Positions 1 to 56,757 of a DNA stretch of 64,000 bases are shown here, piece after piece. The DNA is taken from the NCBI GenBank assembly GCA_026707585.1, contig JAPOWQ010000049.1:25845-89844 (forward strand), given 5' to 3'. The notes below the pieces were generated by a model. The model saw nothing but the letters and a program-made list of their open reading frames with translations, was not told the origin of the DNA and searched no databases. The stretch is from Chloroflexota bacterium (lineage in GTDB: Bacteria > Chloroflexota > UBA11872). The translations under genes were made by a program, and so were the position numbers. The number at the start of each line of letters is the position of its first letter. The stretch's first letter is position 1.

Positions 1-2292
1 CCTTCGTTCAGCGGCGCGGCGGCGTGCTGCCGAACCGCGGCGTGGGCGGTCAGCACTTCGGCTACCACCGCGCGTAGGGCACCCGTGCCCTTGCCGTGGA
101 TGATGCGCAGGGTCGCGGCGCCCTGACGCAGCGCATCGTCGACGCTGCGTTCCGTCATTTCAGCCGCTTCTTCGGCCCGCATCCCGCGAATATCGATCTC
201 CTGTGTCCCGCCGCCAGTGGCCACGCGGCGCGGACGGCGCTTCGGTCGGGGTGGCGCCTGGACCACGCGCTGAAGCCGAGCGCGGCCGAAGGTGGCGCGA
301 GCGCTGCCGATGGCGACCTCCACGGACTGATCCGTGATTCCCAGCACCACGGCGCGGCCGCTAAACCCATCGGCCTCCACTTCGTCGCCCACACGCACGT
401 CAAGTGGGCCAGGCTCGGCAGGTTCGTCTGGCGGCGGCGACCCAGGGGCCAGCCGTTTTTCCGCTGCGTCGAAGCTTCCACGCGCCGCACGCCGGGCGTC
501 GGGACGACCTGATCGGGCCGCGCGCCTGGCCGCCTGAAGAGCCTGGCGTGCGTCGCGTAGCAGTTCGCGGGCCTCACGCCGTGCGTCACGCAGCAGTGTG
601 TCGCGGTCGCGCTCCAGTTCGTCGATCTGGTCGTCAAGCTCGCGGCGCGATTGTTCGGCGGCGTTGCGCGCCTGCGCGCTGGCCGTGCGTTCGCGCTCCG
701 CGGCCGCTCGTTCGCTTTGCGCGTCGAGGATGGCGCGTTCCAGGTCCAGCGCCCCCTTCGACATTCGCGCGCGAGCGTCGTCGACAATCGTGGCCTCAAG
801 CCCGAGCCGGTCCGCGATATCCAGGGCATTGCTGGATCCCGGAATCCCCAGGCGCAGGCGGTAGGTCGGGCGCAGGGTGGCGTGGTCGAACTCCACGCTG
901 GCGTTCCGGGTCGCCGGATGCGATGCGGCAAATGCCTTGAGCGCCGGGTGATGGGTGGTGGCCACCACGGTTGCGCCTCGCTCCAGCAGCTCGGCAATGA
1001 CCGCCTGGCCCAGGGCGGCGCCTTCGTCCGGGTCGGTGCCCGCGCCGATCTCGTCCGCCAGCGCCAGCGCGCCGGGCCCGGCCGCCTCGACCATGGCTCG
1101 CAGGTTGCGTACGTGCGAGGCAAACGTGCTGAGGCTGTGTTCGATGCTCTGCGCATCCCCGATGTCGGCCACGACACGCTCGAACACGGCCACCCGCGAT
1201 CCCGCTTTGGCGGGGACATGCAGTCCGCAAGCCGCCATCAGGTGCAGCAGGCCTACCGTCTTGAGGGCGACGGTCTTGCCGCCCGTATTGGCGCCCGTGA
1301 TCACCAGCGCCCGGGCCTGCGCGCCGTCCAGATGCACGTTGATGGGCACGGGCTTATCCAGCAGGGGATGCCGCGCGGCTTGCAGGTCGAACGAGGTGTC
1401 GTCGCTTACCGCGGGCGCCACCGCCTTGGTGGCCGTCGCGTAGCGCGCCACCGCCAGGGTCCGATCCAGGTCCGCCAGCGCCTGCACGGCGGCGTTGAGG
1501 GCCAGTCGCTCCGCGCCCACCGCCGCGGAGAGTTCCAGCAGGATGCGCTCGACTTCGCGTCGTTCGGCCACTTCCAGCGAGCGAATCTCGTTGCCCGCTT
1601 CGATAACCGCCAGGGGCTCCATGAAGACCGTGGCTCCGCTGGCCGATACGTCGTGCACCACGCCTGGAAAGTCCCGCTGCCGTTCGCGCCGAACGGGAAC
1701 CGTCAACCGGCCGCGGCGCTCCGTGACCAGGCGTTCCCGCAGGACGTCCGTGGAAACTTGCTGGATCATGCGTTCCAGCAGGCGCGTGAGGCGTCCGCGG
1801 GCGCGCGCCAGCATGCGTCGCAGACGCGTCAACTCCTCGGATGCCGAATCCCGAACCTCAGCGTCCTCATTGATCGCCGCCGCAATCCGACCCTCCAGGT
1901 CCGGCGGATCGCTGGCAGCCTCCACCAGCGACCACAGCGCGGGAACCTCGGCCGCCTGCCTGGCAACCGCAGCCACGGCCAGGCGCGTGGCTCGCAGGTG
2001 ATCGTGGACGTCCAGCAGGTCGGCGGGATCCAGGGATGCGCCCCGCGCGGCTCGTTCGGCCCGGTCGCGCACGTCGCGCGCGCCGCCCACCGTGAACGAT
2101 GGGCTGACGTCAAGAAACTGGCGGCCTTGCGCGGTGAGTTCCAGCCGGGCGCTCACGGTCGCGCGGTCAGCGACCGGACGCAGCGCCAGCACCTCGGCTC
2201 GCGCGGCCGAGAACGAGGCGAATCGGGCGACGCGCTCCAATATCGCTGGCAGTTCCAGCAAGTTGCGCGTCTGGGCGTCGGCGACGGTCATG
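1..2292 (-). CDS. mutS2: Endonuclease MutS2 (MutS domain + C-terminal Smr domain); 3' end runs off the window start
   Basis: Reverse-strand translation gives the Walker A motif 'LVITGANTGGKTVALKTVGL' and a C-terminal Smr motif '...IDIRGMRAEEA...IIHGKGTGALR'. ATG is at ~2292 (RC of 'cat') with an in-frame stop just upstream. The six-frame track misses it because no stop falls inside the window. Confidence 0.85.
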
Positions 2293-2459
2293 TGTGGGTC
2301 AGCGGCCGTCAGCTGATCAGTGGGTTCGGTCACAGCAGCAAACTTAGCCTTACGTCGCCAATCCGCAACGTAAGGGCGCGTCGCCAGGATGCGAGCCTGG
2401 TCAATTCAGAGGGCGAAACTCGTGCGAGAGGCCCCTGCCGTCGAAGCGAGGGTGCGCGT

Positions 2460-2765
2460 CTAGTCGTACAGGCGAAACGGCGGATACCGGTCGGTCACGC
2501 TCAAGAAGTAGGCGTTCACCCGTAGATTCCAGCGAAGGACTCCAACCTGGAAGTCATAAAGGCCGCGCGGGTAGTAGCCAACGATCAGGATTGCAATCCA
2601 GCCAATCAGCGTCGCGAAATAGGCGACAAATCCAAGAACCATCAACACCAGAATGTGCGGAAGTATCAGCAGGATCTTGAAGACGGTGAGCAACCCCGCC
2701 AGCGCCAGCAGGCGCGAGCTTTGCTCGGGGTATTCCGCACTAATATCAACCGGGTAGTCATCCAT
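2460..2765 (-). CDS. DUF4389-like small membrane protein
   Basis: 101 aa with two hydrophobic helices ('LLILPHILVLMVLGFVAYFATLIGWIAILIVGYYPRGLYDF'), typical of the DUF4389 family. Confidence 0.55.
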   Translation of the reverse strand: MDDYPVDISAEYPEQSSRLLALAGLLTVFKILLILPHILVLMVLGFVAYFATLIGWIAILIVGYYPRGLYDFQVGVLRWNLRVNAYFLSVTDRYPPFRLYD

Positions 2766-2919: not shown

Positions 2920-3594
2920 TTAGTTTCGCCGCGCGTCCAGTTTCTCTTGCAGCCGGCGCAGCGCCTGTTCGATCCGCAGGTCCAGCAGCTCGCGCTCCAG
3001 GGCCAGCAGGTCGGCCAGCGAATCGGCCTCCAGCAGGCGCTGGGCGCTGCCGGGACCGGTCGGAACGCCGGCCGCGATGAGATGGGCCAGTTGCAGTGGA
3101 TCCGCCGGCAGTTCGAATTCCGGCATGTAGCCCGCCTGGATTTCGATCATCAGCGTCACCAGGCGCTCGAACCGCTCGCGGACATCCTCGGCGCCCTGCA
3201 AGGTTGACACCGTGGCGTCGGTCTGCATGGGCGCCAGTTCCACCTCGCCGACCACGTGGGGTTCCTCGGCCACGATGCGCTCGATTCGGAACCGCGTTTC
3301 GCCAACGGCCAGCAAATTGAAGCGCCCGTCCGGCAGGTATTCCACCTTCTCGACACGCGCTGTCGTCCCGATCTTGTACGGAATGGCGGCGGGGCCGACC
3401 TCTTCGCCCTCGGCGATCAGGACTACGCCGAAGACGCCCTCGGTCTCGATGCAGCGCCCCAGCATCGCCCGGTAGCGCGGCTCGAAGATGTGCAGGGGCA
3501 GGCGCATGCCGGGGAATAGGACGGTATTGAGCGGAAACAGGTCCAGCCGCATGGCGCAGTTTAGGCGGTGGGGAACGGCCGTAGTGTTTGCCAC
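2920..3594 (-). CDS. LON N-terminal (substrate-binding) domain protein
   Basis: 'MRLDLFPLNTVLFPGMRLPLHIFEPRYRAMLGRCIE...' matches the Lon N-terminal domain. The true start is probably the internal Met (~3552). Confidence 0.6.
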   Translation of the reverse strand: MANTTAVPHRLNCAMRLDLFPLNTVLFPGMRLPLHIFEPRYRAMLGRCIETEGVFGVVLIAEGEEVGPAAIPYKIGTTARVEKVEYLPDGRFNLLAVGETRFRIERIVAEEPHVVGEVELAPMQTDATVSTLQGAEDVRERFERLVTLMIEIQAGYMPEFELPADPLQLAHLIAAGVPTGPGSAQRLLEADSLADLLALERELLDLRIEQALRRLQEKLDARRN

Positions 3595-3692
3595 ATAGCT
3601 CCAGCAGGCGTACTGCTAGAGTGAGTCGCCCAAACCACGAGAACCCATTGGACAGCCGCCCGAGGGCGCGAGCGGGGGGTGTCCGGGCCGAC

Positions 3693-4583
3693 ATGAGCGA
3701 CACCGCCATCCAGACCTGGGGCCTGACCAAGCACTACGGCGACGTCGAGGCCCTTTCCGACCTTGACCTCGAAGTCCGCTCGGGCGAGATCTTCGGCTAC
3801 CTCGGCCCCAACGGCGCCGGTAAGACCACCACCATCCGACTGCTTATGGGGTTGATGCGGCCGACGCGCGGACGCGCCGAAGTGCTGGGGATTGACGTCC
3901 ACCGCGACGGCCCCACCGCCCGCAATTCGATGAGCTTCCTGCCCAGCGACAGCAGCCTCTACACGTTTATGAAAGTGGGTCAGTACCTGGAGGCCTTCGG
4001 CGGCCTGACCAACGCGCCGCGCAAGCGGCGCGACGAGTTGACCGAACGGTTGGAGCTGGACACCTCCCGCAAGATCGGCGACCTCTCGATGGGCAACCGC
4101 CAGAAGGTGGTCGTCGTGCGGGCCCTGCAGGAAGACGTTCCGGTCTACGTCGTCGACGAGCCAACCCGCGGCCTCGACCCGCTGGTGCAGCAGGAGTTCG
4201 GCAAGATCATCAGCGAGCTGCGCGACGAGGGGCGCACGGTGCTGCTCTCCACCCACGTGCTCTCCGAGGCCGAAGCGCTCTGCGACCGCGTCGGCATCCT
4301 GCGCCTGGGGCGGCTGGTTCAGGTGGATACCGTCGCCGATCTCAGCGTCGCTCGCATGCGGCGCGTCACCGTCACGTTTGACGGGGAGGCGCCCGCGGAC
4401 CTGACCATTCCGGGCGTTAGCGACATCAGCGTTGAAGACGGTACGGCGCGCTTTGAAGTCAGCGGCTCGATCGATCCGGTCATCAAGGCGCTGGCGCGGT
4501 ACACGGTGGTCGACCTGGAGACCGACGAGCCCAGCTTCGAGGAATCGTTCCTGCAGCACTACGAAAGCGAGGGCGGCGCATGA
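3693..4583 (+). CDS. ABC transporter ATP-binding protein
   Basis: Walker A 'GPNGAGKTTT', ABC signature 'LSMGNRQKV' and Walker B 'VYVVDEPTRGLD'. Start moved to the internal ATG preceding 'MSDTAIQTWGLTKHYGDVEAL'. Confidence 0.85.
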   Translation: MSDTAIQTWGLTKHYGDVEALSDLDLEVRSGEIFGYLGPNGAGKTTTIRLLMGLMRPTRGRAEVLGIDVHRDGPTARNSMSFLPSDSSLYTFMKVGQYLEAFGGLTNAPRKRRDELTERLELDTSRKIGDLSMGNRQKVVVVRALQEDVPVYVVDEPTRGLDPLVQQEFGKIISELRDEGRTVLLSTHVLSEAEALCDRVGILRLGRLVQVDTVADLSVARMRRVTVTFDGEAPADLTIPGVSDISVEDGTARFEVSGSIDPVIKALARYTVVDLETDEPSFEESFLQHYESEGGA

Positions 4584-5389
4584 GCCTCAGCGTCATCCGC
4601 CTGACCCTGCGCACGCGTCGGTTGGCGATCTTCTGGTTTGATTTCGGGATCCTGGCCCTCGGTTTGCTCATCATGGGCCTGTGGCCGTTGTTCGCCGAGA
4701 ATTGGGACGACCTCACCCAGGCCATGGGCGGGAGCGAGGTCTTTGGCGGGACCCAGGTTGAGGGGGCCTCGGCCCAGCAGAACACGTTCTACAGCTATTT
4801 CAGTTCGCAATACACCAGCACGCTCATGCTGGTGCTGGCCTATTTCGGTGTCTGGTTCGGGGCCGGGCTGATCACACGCGACTTTGGAACCGGCACGCTG
4901 GACGTGTTGCTGGCCGCGCCGATGAGCCGCACGCGCTTCCTGCTGTCGCGCATTGCCGCCCTGCTGGTCCTCACCACCGTGGTCATTGCCGCGTCATATG
5001 TCGCAATCCTGGTCGGCGCGGCCATCTGGGCCAGGGAGGTCGACCTGGGCGCGCTCGAATTGCTGGTGGTCCACCTGCAGATGCTGGTCTTTACGCTGGC
5101 CGTGGCCGGCGGCGGACTGCTGCTGGCGACGGTGATCCTGCAGCCTGGCCGAACCTACGGCCTGGCCGCCGGCATCATCGTGATCATGTTCGTGCTGCTG
5201 ATCGTGGCGGACATCGCGTCCAACCTGGAGTGGCTGGAGAAGATCAGCATCTTTGGCTACTGGAACCCGGTGGACCAGCTGGGCCCCGGTGACTTCATCT
5301 GGCGAGACACCCTGGTGTTGGGCGTTACCGCACTGGTTACGGCGGCCATCTCGCTCATCATCTTCCGGCGTCGCGATATCGTCGCCTGA
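4580..5389 (+). CDS. ABC-2 family transporter permease
   Basis: Polytopic membrane protein with a 4-nt ATGA overlap onto the upstream ATPase stop, giving a two-gene exporter operon. Confidence 0.7.
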   Translation: MSLSVIRLTLRTRRLAIFWFDFGILALGLLIMGLWPLFAENWDDLTQAMGGSEVFGGTQVEGASAQQNTFYSYFSSQYTSTLMLVLAYFGVWFGAGLITRDFGTGTLDVLLAAPMSRTRFLLSRIAALLVLTTVVIAASYVAILVGAAIWAREVDLGALELLVVHLQMLVFTLAVAGGGLLLATVILQPGRTYGLAAGIIVIMFVLLIVADIASNLEWLEKISIFGYWNPVDQLGPGDFIWRDTLVLGVTALVTAAISLIIFRRRDIVA

Positions 5390-5467: not shown

Positions 5468-5974
5468 GTGCCCCGTGCCGAGGGCTCCGAAACGCTCGGG
5501 CTCGGAGATCCCGCGCCCCGCTTCACCTTGCCGCTGGCTTCGGATCCCGAACAGCTCTGCGACATTCCGGCCCGCCGCCAGTGGCAACTGCTGATCTTCC
5601 TTCGCCATACCTGGTGACCGAACTGCCGGAGATATCTGGCGCAGCTCGCGGGCGAGCTGGAGGAGTGGGAACGGCGCAAGGTCGCCATCACGGGCGTCTA
5701 CGGCCAGGGGCCGGAGGGGGTGCGGCGCTTCGCCAAGGGCCTCTCGCTGCCGTTCCCGCTGCTGGCGGATGCCGACCGCGCCGCCATCCGCCGCTATGGC
5801 GTCTACGTCCGCGTCAACTTCGAATCCTGGAACATCGCCCGCCCCAGCGTCTTCCTGGTCGATCCCATGGGCCGCATCCGCTTCATCAGCGTCGGCTCCC
5901 ATCAGCGCGACTGGCCTGACTCCGCCAACCTGTTCGCGGTCATCGACAACGCCCAACCTCATATGCCGCCATAG
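5468..5974 (+). CDS. Thioredoxin-fold redoxin (AhpC/TSA/TlpA-like) with an in-frame TGA at the active site; candidate selenoprotein (W-U-P-N-C)
   Basis: The same frame upstream of ORF 5720..5974 reads '...LGLGDPAPRFTLPLASDPEQLCDIPARRQWQLLIFLRHTW-TGA-PNCRRYLAQLAGELEEWERRKVAITGVYGQ...LPFPLLADADRAAIRRYGVYV...PSVFLVDPMGRIRF'. The TGA (5615-5617) replaces the first Cys of WCxxC. The only in-frame start after the upstream stop (5387-5389) is GTG 5468. Confidence 0.65.
5615..5617 (+). other. In-frame UGA, putative selenocysteine codon
   Basis: It sits at the first redox-active position (UxxC) of the redoxin motif. Homology continues uninterrupted on both sides in the same frame. Confidence 0.6.
5624..5664 (+). 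promoter_or_regulatory. Candidate bacterial SECIS element (two hairpins just 3' of the UGA)
   Basis: The first hairpin is 'ugccgga-gaua-ucuggcg', ~7 bp including G.U pairs, starting 7 nt after the UGA. The second is 'cagcucg-cggg-cgagcug', 7 bp with a G-rich apical loop ~25-45 nt after the UGA. Confidence 0.4.
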
Positions 5975-6081: not shown

Positions 6082-6522
6082 CTAGGCGCTATCGACTGCG
6101 CCCAGGCCGCCCCGCACGTGCTCGCTCGTAATCTCGCGTCCGGTCAGGCTGAATGATTGACCGCAACCGCAGACGGACTGGGCTCGCGGATTGAGCACCT
6201 TGAAGCCGCCGTCCATCAGGGAGTCGCTGTACTCCAGCGTCGAACCGCGCAGGAGGTCGGCGCTCTCCTGGTCGACGACCACCGTGACCCCATGGGCCGG
6301 AATGCTCTGATCGCCATCGCGCGGTCCAGGCTCGATGCCCATGGCGTAGCGAAAGTCGCCGCAGCCGGAGTCCACGATCACGCGCACCCGCAGCACGGCG
6401 TCGGGCCGGTTGCGCTTGGTCCGCATCCGGTCAAACTCGGCGGCGGCCGACGGTTGAACCCTGAGGATGGGCGCCTCGGCCAGCGGGAGACCCATCAACT
6501 CAAGCATGTCGCCTGTAGCCAC
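6082..6522 (-). CDS. Fe-S cluster A-type carrier protein (HesB/IscA/SufA/ErpA family)
   Basis: The C-terminus carries 'CGCGQSF' and an upstream conserved Cys ('VIVDSGCGDFRY'). Confidence 0.8.
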   Translation of the reverse strand: MATGDMLELMGLPLAEAPILRVQPSAAAEFDRMRTKRNRPDAVLRVRVIVDSGCGDFRYAMGIEPGPRDGDQSIPAHGVTVVVDQESADLLRGSTLEYSDSLMDGGFKVLNPRAQSVCGCGQSFSLTGREITSEHVRGGLGAVDSA

Positions 6523-6633
6523 GTCGGCGTTCCTTAGCTTCGAGACGCGTCGCGGGCATTCCCACGCGACACCCTGAGCCTACGCAACCCGGCGAGGGCT
6601 CGCCACATGTTTAGTCGAGTGTGGTGCGCAGAG

Positions 6634-6876
6634 CTAAGGCTGTGCGGATAGGCCGTCGACTCGCGCGTTAAGGCCATCGACACGAGCATTGAGGGCATCA
6701 ATCCGCGCGGCAAGCTCGCCGTGCTGGCGGCTGTTCTCCTCTCGAAACTGGCGCACGTCGCTGCGGAGTTCGCTATGGAGCCGCGGACTCAGCCCGACAA
6801 TCAGCCCGCCGAGCCCTAACAGGCCAACGAGCAGCGTCACGCCAACGCTAAGGATGCCTATCAATTCGGGCGACAC
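6634..6876 (-). CDS. Small membrane protein with a C-terminal repeated coiled-coil segment
   Basis: N-terminal TM helix 'LIGILSVGVTLLVGLLGLGGLIVGL'. The C-terminus carries the tandem repeat 'ARIDALNARVDGLNARVDGL'. Confidence 0.4.
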   Translation of the reverse strand: MSPELIGILSVGVTLLVGLLGLGGLIVGLSPRLHSELRSDVRQFREENSRQHGELAARIDALNARVDGLNARVDGLSAQP

Positions 6877-6958
6877 GATTACTCCTGTCCGCCCGAGAGA
6901 AGTTTCCAGCTTCTACGACCTGAAGTCGTGGTAGGCACATGGTGGTGGTCAAATCGGG

Positions 6959-8131
6959 CTAGTGCGCCGCGGCCGATATACGTGCCCGGCGCAATCGCGG
7001 TACTAACGCGTGCAACACCTCCAGCGTCCGCTCAACCTCCGCTTCGGTGTTCCCGCGTCCGGTCGTCAGTCGCAGGCTGCCTGCGGCCAGATCCGGTTTG
7101 ATGCCCAGAGCCAGCAGAACGTGCGAAGGCTCGAGTGAGGCCGATGTGCAGGCCGATCCACTGGACGCCGCGATTCCGGCAGCGTCGAGCCCCATCAGCA
7201 GCGATTCGCTGTCCACGCCCGCGAAGCAGACGTTGACGTTGTTCGGCAGCCGCTGGCGGTGGGGCCCGTTCAGGCGGCTTTCGGGAATGGCTGCGATTCC
7301 CTCGATCAGCCGGTCGCGCAGCCGCGCGTCGTGCGCCGCCGAGGTCGGGCGCTCGGCCTCGGCACGTCCCAGCGCAACGCTCAGTCCTACCGCAAAGGCC
7401 ACGTTCTCGGTTCCGGCGCGCCGATTCCGCTCCTGCGATCCCCCGACGATCTGCGGGCTCAGCCGCGCGCCGCGCCGCACGAACAGCGCGCCGACGCCCT
7501 TTGGCCCGTAAAACTTGTGCGCCGCGATGCTGAGCAGGTCCACGCCCAGTGCCGGAACGTCGATGAGCAAGTGGCCCGGGGCCTGCACGGCGTCGGTATG
7601 AACCAGCGCGGGGTGGTGGCGCAGCGCCGCCGCGATTTCGGCAACCGGCTGGATGGCCCCAATTTCGTTGTTGGCGTACATCACGCTTACCAGAGCGGTG
7701 TCTGGGCGAACGGCCGCCACCACCGCGTCGGGATCAACCAGTCCCACAGCGTCCACGGGAATCACCGTGACCTCGAACCCGTGGCGCTGCGCCAGCAGCT
7801 GCACGGTGTGCAGGACCGCGTGATGCTCCACGGCCGTGGTCACCAGGTGACGCCGCCCTTCCCGGGCCGCCGCGAATGCCGTGCCTCGAATCGCCAGGGC
7901 CGCGCCTTCGCTGCCGCCGCTCGTGAACACAAGCTCGCCCGGATCGGCCAGGAGGACGTCGGCTACCTGGGCCCGTGCGCCGTCCAGCGCGTCCCGCGCC
8001 GCCCGGCCCTCCGCATACAGCGAGCTCGGGTTACCCGGCAGGTCCTCCAGCGTCGTCACAATCGCATCGCGCACCACCGGGTCCAGCGGCGTGGTCGCCG
8101 CGTGATCCAGATAGATGCGGGATGCCGCCAT
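6959..8131 (-). CDS. iscS: Cysteine desulfurase, group I (IscS/NifS type)
   Basis: 'YLDHAATTP', a PLP-lysine region 'SIAAHKFYGPKGVGALF' and the group-I active-site loop 'SSGSACTS'. Confidence 0.85.
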   Translation of the reverse strand: MAASRIYLDHAATTPLDPVVRDAIVTTLEDLPGNPSSLYAEGRAARDALDGARAQVADVLLADPGELVFTSGGSEGAALAIRGTAFAAAREGRRHLVTTAVEHHAVLHTVQLLAQRHGFEVTVIPVDAVGLVDPDAVVAAVRPDTALVSVMYANNEIGAIQPVAEIAAALRHHPALVHTDAVQAPGHLLIDVPALGVDLLSIAAHKFYGPKGVGALFVRRGARLSPQIVGGSQERNRRAGTENVAFAVGLSVALGRAEAERPTSAAHDARLRDRLIEGIAAIPESRLNGPHRQRLPNNVNVCFAGVDSESLLMGLDAAGIAASSGSACTSASLEPSHVLLALGIKPDLAAGSLRLTTGRGNTEAEVERTLEVLHALVPRLRRARISAAAH

Positions 8132-19426: not shown

Positions 19427-19507
19427 GCCGGGGTGGCGGAACGGTAGACGCACGGGACTTAAAATCCCGGGACTTCGGTCGTATGGGTTCGAATCCCATC
19501 CCCGGTA
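19427..19507 (+). tRNA. tRNA-Leu (anticodon UAA), type II with long variable arm
   Basis: Acceptor stem 'gccgggg/ccccggu' (G1.U72). Anticodon stem-loop 'cggga-cuUAAaa-ucccg'. T-arm 'augggTTCGAAUcccau'. Discriminator A, with no encoded CCA. Confidence 0.75.
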
Positions 19508-19655
19508 CCGCGGATCGGTGGTCAGTGGACAGTCGATGGTGAGTGGCCGTGAAACCCTGCCGTGGTCCAGGCGTTGCACCCTGCACTTGGTCGCGCCCCT
19601 TCCCCCGATCCGCTCGGCCTCTTGGCGTCGCGCCTGAGCGCTGCAAATAACTCAT

Positions 19656-55284: not shown

Positions 55285-56757
55285 GTGCCCGCGCTGTCTC
55301 AGGCCGTCGAGCAGGTGTCCTTCAACGTCGGCCGACGCATAGACGCGGCGCCCGCCGCCGCGATCCTGGCCATTATCGCGCTGGCCGCCGCCCAGCCGCT
55401 GGACGCCGACCTCTGGGTCCACCTCAACAACGGTCGCTTCATCGCCAGCCGGGGCGAACTCCCCTATCCCGATCCATTCACCTTCAGCGCCGGGGACGCG
55501 GTCTGGACGGTCCACGAGTGGCTTCCCGCCCTGATCATCTTTCAACTGGTCGACCTCGGCGGAGTCATAGCCGCGGTCCTGGGCATAGCCGCCGTCTACG
55601 CCCTCATCTGGGGCCTGCTCGAACGCACGCTGGCCGCCCACGGCGTCGGCCCATGGATGCGAACTGCCGCGCTGGTGACGGCATCCCTGCCGCTGTTTCC
55701 ATTCGCGGGCATCCGTCCGCTGGCATTCGGACTACTGGCCGCCGTTCTGGCGGCCGTCCTGGCGTCGCATCACCGGCGCACCGGCTCGCGTTGGGTGTGG
55801 CTGCTGCCGCTCGTGTTCGTCATCTGGGGCAACCTCCACGCGTCGTTCCCCATCGGCTTCGCCCTGCTCGGAGCCCTCTTCTTCGAAGCCCTCTGGGCAC
55901 GGTCCCGGCTGCCTTTCATCGGTCCAAGCCCCCGCACACGCCTTGGACCCTTCGCCGCCGTCACGGCCTTGTCGGTCGTCGCACCGGCCCTCAATCCGTC
56001 GGGATTCCGCCTGCTCGCCCAGCCGTTCTTTCAATGGGGCGGCGAGTTTCGTCGCTTCAACAGCGACTGGCGACCGCCCGAGGCCTTCAGCGAGACCTGG
56101 TGGTTTTTCGCGGCCTTTCTGGTTCTGACCGGTCTGCTGCTCGTCCTGCGACGCGGTCGTATCGCCCCTACCGATGTCCTGGTGCTGGTCGTCGTGGTGG
56201 CTGCCGGCTACAGCACACGCAAAGTCATGCCCTTCGCCGCGGTCCTGGCGCCGTTGCTGCTGACTGGCCCGCTGGCCCTTACCGGCGCCCCACGCCTGCA
56301 TCCTCCGGTCTGGGCGGTCCGTATCGCTGGGGCGCTGGTCGTGGCCTCGGCTATTGGCGTTGCCGTCGCCATCAGCCCGCGCACGCTCGATGGACCCACC
56401 GTGGTGCCTATGCCGGCCGTCGCCCGTGACCTCGCCGCTTTGTCCGGAGCGACTCGAATCTTGAGTACCTACCATTGGGGCGCGTACCTCTCCTGGACCC
56501 TCTGGCCCGACGCCCTGGTGTACATCGACGGCCGGTTCGATCTCTTCGTCCCCGACAAGCTCGGGGACTACCTGACCGTCATCAGTCTCGGGGCCGACTG
56601 GCGCCAGGTGCTCACCGACATCAACCCCAACGCTCTGGTCATCGAGACCGATTCCCCCCTCGCACGCCAGCTCGGCCACCCCGATTCAGGCTGGCGAGAC
56701 GCCGGCGGCGACGCTATTGCCCGCCTGTTTCTCCCCGGTGCGGCTACACCCGCATGA
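55285..56757 (+). CDS. Polytopic integral membrane protein, possible GT-C-type glycosyltransferase (family unassigned)
   Basis: About 12 predicted TM helices, with a conserved-looking loop 'LWVHLNNGRFIASRGELPYPDPF' after TM1. Confidence 0.4.
   Translation: MPALSQAVEQVSFNVGRRIDAAPAAAILAIIALAAAQPLDADLWVHLNNGRFIASRGELPYPDPFTFSAGDAVWTVHEWLPALIIFQLVDLGGVIAAVLGIAAVYALIWGLLERTLAAHGVGPWMRTAALVTASLPLFPFAGIRPLAFGLLAAVLAAVLASHHRRTGSRWVWLLPLVFVIWGNLHASFPIGFALLGALFFEALWARSRLPFIGPSPRTRLGPFAAVTALSVVAPALNPSGFRLLAQPFFQWGGEFRRFNSDWRPPEAFSETWWFFAAFLVLTGLLLVLRRGRIAPTDVLVLVVVVAAGYSTRKVMPFAAVLAPLLLTGPLALTGAPRLHPPVWAVRIAGALVVASAIGVAVAISPRTLDGPTVVPMPAVARDLAALSGATRILSTYHWGAYLSWTLWPDALVYIDGRFDLFVPDKLGDYLTVISLGADWRQVLTDINPNALVIETDSPLARQLGHPDSGWRDAGGDAIARLFLPGAATPA

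What the first reader, a model, noticed from the sequence alone, without database searches (positions are those of the whole stretch)
5618..5670. Hairpins immediately 3' of the UGA consistent with a bacterial SECIS element
Bacterial Sec insertion needs a stem-loop within ~10-40 nt downstream of the UGA inside the coding sequence. Here 'cugccggagauaucuggcg' forms a ~7-bp hairpin (with G.U pairs, GAUA loop) beginning 7 nt after the UGA. A second, very stable hairpin 'cagcucg cggg cgagcug' (7 G/C-rich bp, G-containing apical loop) lies ~25-45 nt after it. Such structure inside an ORF, exactly where SelB would need it, supports recoding rather than termination.
Basis: seen in the sequence. Interest (0 to 1): 0.6.

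Follow-up and report, generated by a model that had tools for sequence, protein, structure and literature searches.

The report
SECIS hairpins in a Prx-like selenoprotein gene
The two hairpins just after the in-frame UGA are real and conserved, and they mark an ordinary bacterial selenocysteine-insertion signal in a known family of redox selenoproteins that gene callers routinely truncate.

Summary

**The gene.** Window 5468-5974 (+) encodes a 168-residue AhpC/TSA (PF00578) thioredoxin-fold protein. TGA 5615-5617 sits at the first position of a UxxC redox motif (HTW-U-PNC).

**The codon.** The aligned codon is TGA in all 66 close relatives, never TAA or TAG. It is TGC/TGT in 43 sister homologues and Thr in distant Prx/BCP.

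**The hairpins.** Hairpin 1 (5624-5641) and hairpin 2 (5642-5659) fold in nearly all clade relatives.
- Codons +3 to +13 after the UGA are almost frozen at synonymous sites (0.06 against 0.50 elsewhere).
- Synonymous recoding of the window sequence rarely gives a fold as stable (7 of 2000).
- Hairpin 1 shows compensatory changes.

**Which hairpin is the SECIS.** Hairpin 2 meets all four published bacterial SECIS consensus criteria. Hairpin 1 lies 3 nt too close to the UGA. A G[G/U]-loop hairpin 16-37 nt after the codon is present in 45 of 45 unique Sec forms and 0 of 39 Cys forms. Hairpin 2 is therefore the likely SelB-binding core, and hairpin 1 a clade-specific accessory helix.

**Novelty.** The family, Prx-like thiol:disulfide oxidoreductase with UxxC, is already described, so this is a new member of a known kind. 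The Sec machinery could not be checked.

The parts
5468..5974 (+). Selenoprotein gene: a 168-residue Prx-like thiol:disulfide oxidoreductase with an AhpC/TSA fold and an internal UGA. The GTG start at 5468 is inferred from the position of the start in orthologues, which begin M/V-PRA(E/Q)GS.
   Evidence: Translation. Pfam PF00578 at E = 1.6e-23 and PF08534 at E = 4.5e-13. Orthologue translations. Public gene callers report only the 84-residue tail, window 5720-5974.
5615..5617 (+). In-frame UGA, residue 50, read as selenocysteine. It is the first position of the UxxC redox motif HTW-U-PNC.
   Evidence: The aligned codon is TGA in 66 loci, TGC/TGT in 43, and Thr in distant Prx/BCP. It is never TAA or TAG.
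5624..5626 (+). UGC codon of the resolving Cys53 of the UxxC motif. It also forms the first three nucleotides of the 5' strand of hairpin 1.
   Evidence: The codon is TGC in 21 of 21 clade representatives.
5624..5641 (+). Hairpin 1: 7 bp (UGCCGGA/UCUGGCG) with loop GAUA at 5631-5634, placed 6 nt after the UGA. It is a clade-specific accessory helix. It fails the SECIS spacing criterion, with 13 nt from the UGA to the loop.
   Evidence: Fold energy -9.8 kcal/mol. 0 of 2000 synonymous recodings are as stable. It uses the rare codon AGA (1% of Arg) and TAT (25% of Tyr). 91.3% of cells are paired in 23 sequences, with A-U to G-C in 5 sequences and G-C to U-A in 1. It is degraded in L081-84, register-shifted in L104, and absent in L108/109.
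5642..5659 (+). Hairpin 2: 7 bp (CAGCUCG/CGAGCUG) with loop CGGG at 5649-5652 and 31 nt between the UGA and the loop. This is the best candidate for the SelB-binding SECIS core.
   Evidence: Fold energy -11.4 kcal/mol. It meets all four bSECIS consensus criteria. 97.5% of cells are paired, and changes are only G-U-compatible. Its codons are frozen at synonymous sites: CGG 16/16, CTC 20/21, GCG 17/17, GGC 16/16, GAG 20/20. The same stem with a GGU loop forms the only hairpin in the Sec form L049.
5624..5656 (+). Run of codons +3 to +13 with nearly no synonymous variation among relatives. This is the footprint of RNA-level selection and covers both hairpins.
   Evidence: Pooled synonymous difference is 0.061 here against 0.50 in the rest of the gene. 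It is the lowest window in the gene, and 0 of 100000 random column sets are as low.

Best explanation
Window 5468-5974 encodes a cytoplasmic Prx-like thiol:disulfide oxidoreductase whose attacking redox residue is selenocysteine, in a UxxC motif encoded by UGA 5615-5617.

The mRNA directly downstream (5624-5659) carries the bacterial SECIS. Hairpin 2 (5642-5659, loop CGGG) is most likely the stem-loop that the C-terminal domain of SelB binds. SelB would then deliver Sec-tRNA(Sec) to the UGA in the ribosomal A site in competition with RF2.

Hairpin 1 (5624-5641) is a conserved accessory helix specific to this Chloroflexota clade. It occupies the 24-nt spacer. Its base lies 6 nt after the UGA, so it can sit at the mRNA entrance when the UGA is in the A site and hold hairpin 2 next to the ribosome.

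**Shown here:**
- the fold family;
- the Sec/Cys pairing at this codon;
- conservation of the TGA;
- the existence of both hairpins, their conservation and their synonymous-site constraint;
- consensus compliance of hairpin 2.

**Inferred:**
- SelB binding;
- the division of labour between the two hairpins;
- the presence of selA, selB, selC and selD elsewhere in the genome.
For: **Protein family**
- PF00578 at E = 1.6e-23.
- The closest solved structures are BCP, ResA and AhpE. U50 aligns to the Ser/Thr and C53 to the peroxidatic Cys of the T/SxxC motif.

**Recoding**
- 13 of 14 database homologues are 92-109-residue C-terminal fragments, that is, calls truncated at the stop.
- The aligned codon is TGA in 66 of 66 close relatives, Cys in 43 sister forms, and never TAA or TAG.
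- The N-terminal part is conserved as protein.

**RNA**
- Both hairpins fold in 12 of 12 genome orthologues.
- Pairing is 94.4% against 28-44% in slid controls, with two compensated pairs in hairpin 1.
- Synonymous difference is 0.061 in codons +3 to +13 against 0.50 elsewhere, and 0 of 100000 random sets are as low.
- Recoding test: 7 of 2000 as stable. The rare AGA codon is used.
- Recoding z-scores average -1.8 for this Sec clade against -0.11 for Cys forms.

**Assignment of hairpin 2**
- It meets the published criteria for loop size, stem length, loop G, 16-37-nt spacing and energy.
- G[G/U]-loop hairpins at that spacing occur in 45 of 45 unique Sec forms against 0 of 39 Cys forms.
- L108/109 lack hairpin 1 but have a GGUU-loop hairpin at +23 to +38.
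- The sister Sec clade has a single GGU-loop hairpin at +18 to +34. Its rare codons are frozen (ATA 19/19), and L126 carries a compensatory A-U to G-C change.
- L049 has the same CAGCUC/GAGCUG stem with a GGU loop.

**Family already known**
- The family is described as a selenoprotein family in PMC1088965, PMC2398784 and PMC9312934.
Against: - No selA, selB, selD or tRNA-Sec gene was found in the window. Only tRNA-Leu is present, and 20 of the 57 predicted genes were scanned. The Sec-decoding trait of this genome is therefore assumed, not shown.
- Hairpin 2 shows no double compensatory change. Its stem encodes the conserved peptide (Q/R)-L-A-G-E-L, and 71 of 2000 synonymous recodings are as stable. 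Its support rests on frozen synonymous sites rather than on covariation.
- The window's loop is CGGG and has no U. The E. coli and sister-clade loops are GGUC/GGU.
- Hairpin 2 starts 24 nt after the UGA. That is further than the 11 nt of the E. coli minimal element.
- Hairpin 1 is also under selection, so it cannot be excluded as the SelB site.
- Generic shuffle z-scores for longer windows are not significant.
- Rfam has no match, even at E <= 10.
Confidence: 0.78

Rival explanations
1. Hairpin 1 (5624-5641, loop GAUA) is the SelB-binding SECIS. Hairpin 2 is a secondary or incidental structure.
For: - Hairpin 1 is the element with true compensatory changes: A-U to G-C in five sequences and G-C to U-A in L110.
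- None of 2000 synonymous recodings is as stable.
- It uses the rare codon AGA.
- Its loop begins with G in the window and in most close relatives.
- L104 replaced it with a register-shifted hairpin rather than losing it.
Against: - Only 13 nt separate the UGA from the loop, outside the 16-37 range of the consensus.
- The loop sequence is not conserved: GAUA, GGUA, GCUA, GCAC, GACCAA, AACCAA and AAUCAA all occur. It usually lacks G[G/U].
- The hairpin has two mismatches in L081-84 and is absent in L108/109, although these keep the TGA.
- No equivalent exists in the sister Sec clade, or in L049 and L069.
Confidence: 0.12
2. Both hairpins act together as one obligate bipartite SECIS. They stack coaxially because they abut with no spacer. 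Neither suffices alone, making this a distinct SECIS class in this Chloroflexota lineage.
For: - The synonymous-site freeze spans both hairpins without a break, from codon +3 to +13.
- The hairpins are directly adjacent at G5641/C5642 in all clade members that have both.
- Reviews state that some bacterial SECIS elements do not fit the consensus and that distinct classes probably exist.
Against: - Relatives within the same clade keep the TGA with hairpin 1 degraded (L081-84) or absent (L108/109).
- Hairpin 2 alone already satisfies the consensus.
- There is no evidence for tertiary contacts.
Confidence: 0.08
3. The UGA is a real stop: a pseudogene, a split gene or an assembly error. On this view the hairpins are by-products of GC-rich codon usage and of the conserved peptide CRRYLAQLAGEL.
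For: - Longer-window folds are no more stable than shuffles: z = -0.68 and -0.10.
- Cys-form homologues also show chance hairpins, for example GAACU...AGUUC.
- The number of SECIS-like structures predicted by bSECISearch rises with genome GC content (PMC12013277).
- No Sec machinery was seen in the window.
Against: - The TGA sits at the identical codon in 66 independent loci, never TAA or TAG, and exactly where homologues have the redox Cys.
- Protein-level conservation continues upstream of the stop.
- Synonymous sites are frozen only in the 11 codons after the UGA.
- Recoding z-scores are negative in Sec forms but about 0 in Cys forms.
- G[G/U]-loop hairpins occur in 45 of 45 Sec forms against 0 of 39 Cys forms.
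Confidence: 0.02

Closest known systems
Bacterial SECIS consensus model (the bSECISearch model of Zhang and Gladyshev, as summarised in PMC13188914 Fig. 2 legend)
   Same: - Both are stem-loops inside the ORF, immediately 3' of the Sec UGA.
- Hairpin 2 has a 4-nt loop and a 7-bp stem.
- Its second loop position is G, followed by another G.
- 31 nt separate the UGA from the loop.
- Its energy is -10 to -11 kcal/mol.

All four criteria are met.
   Different: - A second conserved hairpin (hairpin 1) fills the spacer between the UGA and the consensus hairpin. The model does not include such a feature.
- Hairpin 1 itself misses the spacing criterion by 3 nt.
E. coli fdhF SECIS (40-nt element; minimal 17-nt upper stem-loop 11 nt from the UGA, with bulged U17 and loop G23/U24)
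   Same: - Both are an in-ORF hairpin downstream of the UGA with guanosines in a small apical loop.
- The presumed mode of action is the same: tethering SelB.
- Relatives L009-L011 and L110 read GGUC at the loop-stem junction of hairpin 2. The sister clade has a GGGUC loop at +24 to +28.
   Different: - The spacing is 6 nt (hairpin 1) or 24 nt (hairpin 2) rather than 11 nt.
- Neither stem has a bulged U.
- The window's loop is CGGG, without the U.
- There are two abutting hairpins instead of one long, interrupted stem.
Prx-like thiol:disulfide oxidoreductase selenoprotein family (pfam00578, UxxC/UxxU; 'Prx-like 1' of the GOS survey; reference WP_010940744.1)
   Same: - It has the AhpC/TSA domain.
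- It has a thioredoxin-like UxxC motif in place of the TxxC/TxxU motif of peroxiredoxins.
- Cys-containing homologues are abundant.
- The function is predicted, not tested.
   Different: - This is a Chloroflexota subfamily, with the flanking motif FLRHTW-U-PNC.
- The reference sequence could not be compared directly.
- The closest NCBIfam model, SelL-related redox protein NF040769, scores below its cutoff: 57 bits against 120.

Membership tests
Bacterial SECIS (published consensus model) | A stem-loop within the coding region, immediately downstream of an in-frame UGA that is conserved as TGA and pairs with Cys in homologues | tested here: met
   Hairpins lie at 5624-5659, 6 nt after UGA 5615-5617. 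The aligned codon is TGA in 66 loci and Cys in 43.
Bacterial SECIS (published consensus model) | Apical loop of 3-9 nt and an upper stem of 4-16 bp | tested here: met
   Both hairpins have a 4-nt loop and a 7-bp stem. The criterion is taken from PMC13188914.
Bacterial SECIS (published consensus model) | At least one G in the first two loop positions, mostly as G[G|U] | tested here: met
   The hairpin 2 loop is CGGG: G at position 2, followed by G. Across the clade it is CGGG, AGGU or CGUG. The hairpin 1 loop is GAUA: G comes first but is followed by A, and the loop is not conserved in the clade.
Bacterial SECIS (published consensus model) | [quoted passage not shown] | tested here: met
   Hairpin 2 has 31 nt and meets the criterion. 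Hairpin 1 has 13 nt and does not.
Bacterial SECIS (published consensus model) | MFE <= -7.5 kcal/mol | tested here: met
   Hairpin 2 scores -10.0 (hairpin evaluation) and -11.4. Hairpin 1 scores -9.1 and -9.8.
Bacterial SECIS (published consensus model) | Binds SelB and directs Sec insertion, and the genome encodes selA, selB, selC and selD | not testable with these tools
   The only tRNA in the window is tRNA-Leu. None of the 20 scanned genes is a sel gene.
E. coli fdhF-type SECIS | A minimal 17-nt stem-loop placed 11 nt from the UGA, with bulged U17 and loop G23-U24 | tested here: not met
   The spacing is 6 or 24 nt, there is no bulge, and the loops are GAUA and CGGG. The features are taken from PMC8659212.
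Prx-like thiol:disulfide oxidoreductase selenoprotein (pfam00578, UxxC) | AhpC/TSA (PF00578) domain | tested here: met
   E = 1.6e-23 and 83.4 bits against a cutoff of 26, covering residues 13-139.
Prx-like thiol:disulfide oxidoreductase selenoprotein (pfam00578, UxxC) | A UxxC motif with Sec at the position of the Prx Thr and Cys at the position of the peroxidatic Cys, plus Sec/Cys pairs in homologues | tested here: met
   The window motif is W-U-P-N-C. It aligns to TPGC/TPVC in BCP/Prx and to WCPNC in Cys forms. The family definition comes from PMC1088965 and PMC9312934.
NCBIfam NF040769 SelL-related redox protein | Score at or above the curated cutoff of 120 bits | tested here: not met
   The score is 57.1 bits, with a partial match of residues 35-112.
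Any Rfam 15 RNA family | A covariance-model match | tested here: not met
   No match at gathering thresholds in the region. No match at E <= 10 in 5540-5740.

The most novel reading that the evidence does not exclude
In this Chloroflexota lineage the SECIS is a tandem, two-hairpin element. A spacer hairpin is selected for at the RNA level and starts 6 nt after the UGA, the distance at which frameshift-stimulating structures sit at the ribosome's mRNA entrance. It positions, or kinetically assists, a distal G-loop hairpin that binds SelB. This would be a SECIS architecture not covered by the single stem-loop consensus.
Probability: 0.25. Interest if true: 0.4.

Novelty: new member of a known kind. 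Interest (0 to 1): 0.25.

Why it matters
**Annotation.** Public gene calls give only an 84-109-residue tail for this gene and its relatives. The N-terminal third, with the catalytic UxxC site, is lost. Correct annotation restores a redox selenoprotein and marks these Chloroflexota MAGs as Sec users.

**SECIS biology.** The data give a clean natural comparison within one protein family. Two Sec clades have different SECIS solutions: a single GGU-loop hairpin at +18 to +34, or a tandem pair with the G-loop at +35 to +38. Cys-containing sisters lack any such hairpin. This set could serve to train or test bacterial SECIS predictors, which reviews describe as incomplete.

The finding does not change current understanding of Sec decoding.

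Tried and rejected
- **Rfam.** Searches at gathering thresholds and at E <= 10 found nothing in the region. This is uninformative, because no Rfam model matched here.
- **RNAalifold.** On the 23-sequence alignment it kept hairpin 2 but replaced hairpin 1 with a weak 5-bp helix pairing UGGUG (the Trp codon plus the UG of UGA) with UGCCA. I set this aside. It contains two invariant G.U pairs, is dictated by the W-U and C-Q codons, and would sequester the UGA itself.
- **Generic shuffles.** Dinucleotide-shuffle z-scores for 71-nt and 141-nt windows were not significant. I replaced them with coding-aware tests.
- **Sec machinery.** The only tRNA in the window is tRNA-Leu. Twenty of 57 predicted genes were scanned, including all those of SelA, SelB or SelD size, and none is a sel gene.
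- **Other selenoprotein genes.** A screen for further in-frame TGA candidates in the window found only gene junctions and antisense frames.
- **SelL-related family.** Membership in NCBIfam NF040769 is rejected because the score is below the cutoff.
- **Genome-wide TGA reassignment.** Rejected because TGA ends 28 of 57 predicted genes and gyrB matches its equivalog profile end to end.
- **Homology between clades.** The window hairpins are not positionally homologous to the sister-clade SECIS. That loop, at +24 to +28, falls on the 3' strand of hairpin 1.

Full report
**What is in the sequence.** The frame containing TGA 5615-5617 is open from 5390 to the TAG at 5972-5974. With the GTG at 5468 as start, it encodes 168 residues. 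The start is inferred from orthologues that begin M/V-PRA(E/Q)GS.

Six nucleotides after the TGA comes hairpin 1, UGCCGGA-GAUA-UCUGGCG (5624-5641), with 7 bp of which two are G.U. Directly abutting it is hairpin 2, CAGCUCG-CGGG-CGAGCUG (5642-5659), with 7 Watson-Crick bp. RNAfold returns exactly these two hairpins for 5615-5660. The energy is -21.2 kcal/mol with z = -2.80, and 1 of 200 shuffles folds as well.

Longer windows are no more stable than shuffles (z = -0.68 and -0.10). In this 66% GC DNA, thermodynamics alone does not show that the structure is more than chance.

**What the gene is.** With Cys in place of the stop, the product matches Pfam AhpC/TSA (PF00578, E = 1.6e-23) and Redoxin. 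The best solved relatives are BCP thiol peroxidase, ResA and AhpE. In the BCP alignment the stop aligns to the Ser/Thr, and Cys53 to the peroxidatic Cys, of the (T/S)xxC motif. The motif is therefore HTW-U-PNC, a thioredoxin-like UxxC. The closest NCBIfam model, SelL-related redox protein, scores below its cutoff (57 bits against 120).

**Evidence for recoding.**
- A search of 5.8 billion proteins returned 14 homologues. Thirteen are 92-109-residue fragments that begin just after the stop, and one is a full-length Cys form, TWCPNC.
- I fetched the DNA of relatives from genomes, metagenomes and assemblies and mapped the codon aligned to residue 50 by tblastn.
- That codon is TGA in all 66 close relatives and never TAA or TAG. 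It is TGC/TGT in 43 sister homologues (F.RGTWCPNC) and Thr or Ser in distant Prx/BCP.
- The protein sequence upstream of the stop is conserved.
- TGA is otherwise the commonest stop in the window, ending 28 of 57 predicted genes. A reassigned genetic code is therefore excluded.
- The public gene call for this very locus is the 84-residue tail.

This is the standard Sec/Cys signature of a selenoprotein.

**Evidence that the hairpins are selected at the RNA level.** The window belongs to a Chloroflexota clade with the motif FLRH.W-U-..C...LARLAGELEEW. The clade aligns without gaps over 126 codons.
- **Synonymous sites.** Among 21 representatives with 50-94% protein identity, the fraction of same-amino-acid pairs that use different codons is 0.061 in codons +3 to +13. 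In the rest of the gene it is 0.50. This is the lowest window in the gene, and none of 100000 random column sets is as low.
- **Frozen codons.** They include non-preferred ones: CGG 16/16, CTC 20/21 and GCG 17/17.
- **Rare codons in the window.** Hairpin 1 uses AGA (1% of Arg codons) and TAT (25% of Tyr codons) to make the A5630-U5635 pair.
- **Recoding the window.** Recoding the 15 codons after the UGA synonymously with the window's own codon usage gives a mean MFE of -14.1 +/- 2.9, against the observed -21.2. Only 7 of 2000 recodings are as stable. For hairpin 1 alone the figure is 0 of 2000, and for hairpin 2 alone 71 of 2000.
- **Recoding the groups.** The same test gives a mean z of -1.8 for this Sec clade and -0.11 for the Cys forms.
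- **Pair counts.** On a 23-sequence alignment, 94.4% of cells pair, against 28-44% when partners are slid.
  - Hairpin 1 pairs in 91.3% of cells. Two of its pairs changed on both sides: A-U to G-C in five sequences and G-C to U-A in L110.
  - Hairpin 2 pairs in 97.5% of cells. Its only changes are G-U-compatible and one-sided.

**Which hairpin is the SECIS.** The published bacterial consensus requires four things (PMC13188914):
- a 3-9-nt loop on a 4-16-bp stem;
- G in the first two loop positions, mostly as G[G|U];
- 16-37 nt between the UGA and the loop;
- MFE <= -7.5 kcal/mol.

Hairpin 2 meets all four: loop CGGG, 31 nt and -10.0 kcal/mol. Hairpin 1 fails the spacing criterion with 13 nt, and its loop is not conserved (GAUA, GGUA, GCUA, GCAC, GACCAA, AACCAA).

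I applied the criteria to all unique sequences. A hairpin of at least 5 bp, with a G[G|U] loop at 16-37 nt, occurs in 45 of 45 Sec forms and 0 of 39 Cys forms at E <= -3. At E <= -7.5 the counts are 22 of 45 and 0 of 39.

Relatives help to separate the two elements:
- L081-84 keep the TGA and hairpin 2, but hairpin 1 has two mismatches.
- L108/109 have no hairpin 1. They carry a different hairpin with a GGUU loop at +23 to +38.
- L049, a Polyangiaceae Sec form, has only CAGCUC-GGU-GAGCUG at +18 to +34. This is the same stem as the window's hairpin 2.
- The sister Sec clade (FGRGTW-U-PHCREYMGHI) has a single hairpin, GUAUAUG-GGU-CAUAUAC, at +18 to +34. Its rare codons are frozen (ATA 19/19, GGT 15/16, TAT 19/19). 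L126 carries a compensatory A-U to G-C change.

The universal element is therefore a G-loop hairpin, which in the window is hairpin 2.

Hairpin 1 is clade-specific but clearly selected. L104 even replaced it with a register-shifted hairpin. Its base lies 6 nt after the UGA. That is the spacing at which downstream structures abut the mRNA entrance when the preceding codon is in the A site. This point comes from established knowledge of frameshift stimulators, not from a test here. I therefore infer that hairpin 1 compacts the 24-nt spacer and presents hairpin 2 next to the ribosome. This inference is not demonstrated.

**Comparison with known systems.** The protein fits the Prx-like thiol:disulfide oxidoreductase selenoprotein family (pfam00578, UxxC). 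That family was first noted in the Sargasso Sea survey and is listed as 'Prx-like 1' in GOS and in later reviews (PMC1088965, PMC2398784, PMC9312934, PMC13188914). Chloroflexi were already known to include Sec users (PMC1794560).

The RNA works like a bacterial SECIS and satisfies the consensus. It is not an E. coli fdhF-type element, which has 11-nt spacing, a bulged U17 and loop G23/U24. None of these is present in the window.

**Limits.**
- The Sec machinery could not be examined. The window has only tRNA-Leu. None of the 20 genes scanned, including all those of SelA, SelB or SelD size, is a sel gene.
- Hairpin 2 lacks double compensatory changes, and its stem encodes a conserved peptide. 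Its RNA-level support therefore rests on frozen synonymous sites and on the Sec-versus-Cys contrast.
- SelB binding is inferred.

**Verdict.** The refinement is that hairpin 2 is the probable SelB-binding core and hairpin 1 a conserved accessory helix. This is a new member of a known selenoprotein family with a consensus-type SECIS, and it is of modest interest. The tandem-hairpin architecture is the only feature that might prove to be a variant worth testing.

Noticed in passing
window 5720-5974; L179 4141-4395; P0001-P0014: Public gene callers annotate this selenoprotein and nearly all its relatives as 84-109-residue C-terminal fragments. Sometimes a separate 47-54-residue N-terminal ORF is also called. 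The catalytic UxxC site is missing from the protein databases.
   Followed up: yes
L111 742, L112/L113 742 (metagenome contigs Ga0315281_10013834, Ga0209881_1000045, Ga0209840_1000016): These Sec-containing relatives have lost the resolving cysteine, reading W-U-PNS and W-U-PNA instead of UxxC. They keep the GGU-loop hairpin. This suggests a one-Sec mechanism in these members.
   Followed up: no
L011 (OZ253587.1) about 3220 onwards: This orthologue keeps the TGA and both hairpins. The reading frame breaks about 25 codons downstream and the protein similarity is lost. This is either a frameshift pseudogene or a long-read assembly indel.
   Followed up: no
L049 3112 (Polyangiaceae MAG) and L069 3028 (Acidiferrales MAG): These are two further AhpC/TSA proteins, only about 30% identical to the window protein, with TGA at the same position (W-U-PFC). 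Each has a single hairpin at +18 to +34 built on the same CAGCU/AGCUG stem as the window's hairpin 2.
   Followed up: partly
window 3588-5389 (+) and 2920-3594 (-); L081-L083, L092-L093, L179: The genes upstream are an ABC ATPase, an ABC-2 permease and a LON substrate-binding-domain protein. This upstream synteny is kept in relatives about 55% identical. In those relatives the downstream genes are MarR plus two ABC exporters rather than the window's arrangement.
   Followed up: partly
window 6082-8131 (-): Immediately downstream, on the opposite strand, lie an IscA/HesB-type Fe-S biosynthesis protein with a C-terminal CGCG motif, an 80-residue ORF with no family, and a class-V aminotransferase of the cysteine desulfurase / selenocysteine lyase type. 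HesB-like proteins are a known selenoprotein family, but this copy has Cys.
   Followed up: partly
window 651-2525 (+) and 55285-56757 (+): Two long ORFs with good coding signal, 624 and 490 residues, have no Pfam or NCBIfam match at the thresholds used.
   Followed up: no
L104 (PVBE012789037.1) nt +7 to +32 after the TGA at 748: A Gln-to-Thr codon change (CAG to ACU) creates a 10-bp hairpin with loop AUCAAC. It replaces hairpin 1 in a shifted register and overlaps the first 5 nt of hairpin 2.
   Followed up: partly
window 19427-19509 (+): tRNA-Leu(UAA) is the only tRNA in the window. There is no tRNA-Sec.
   Followed up: yes
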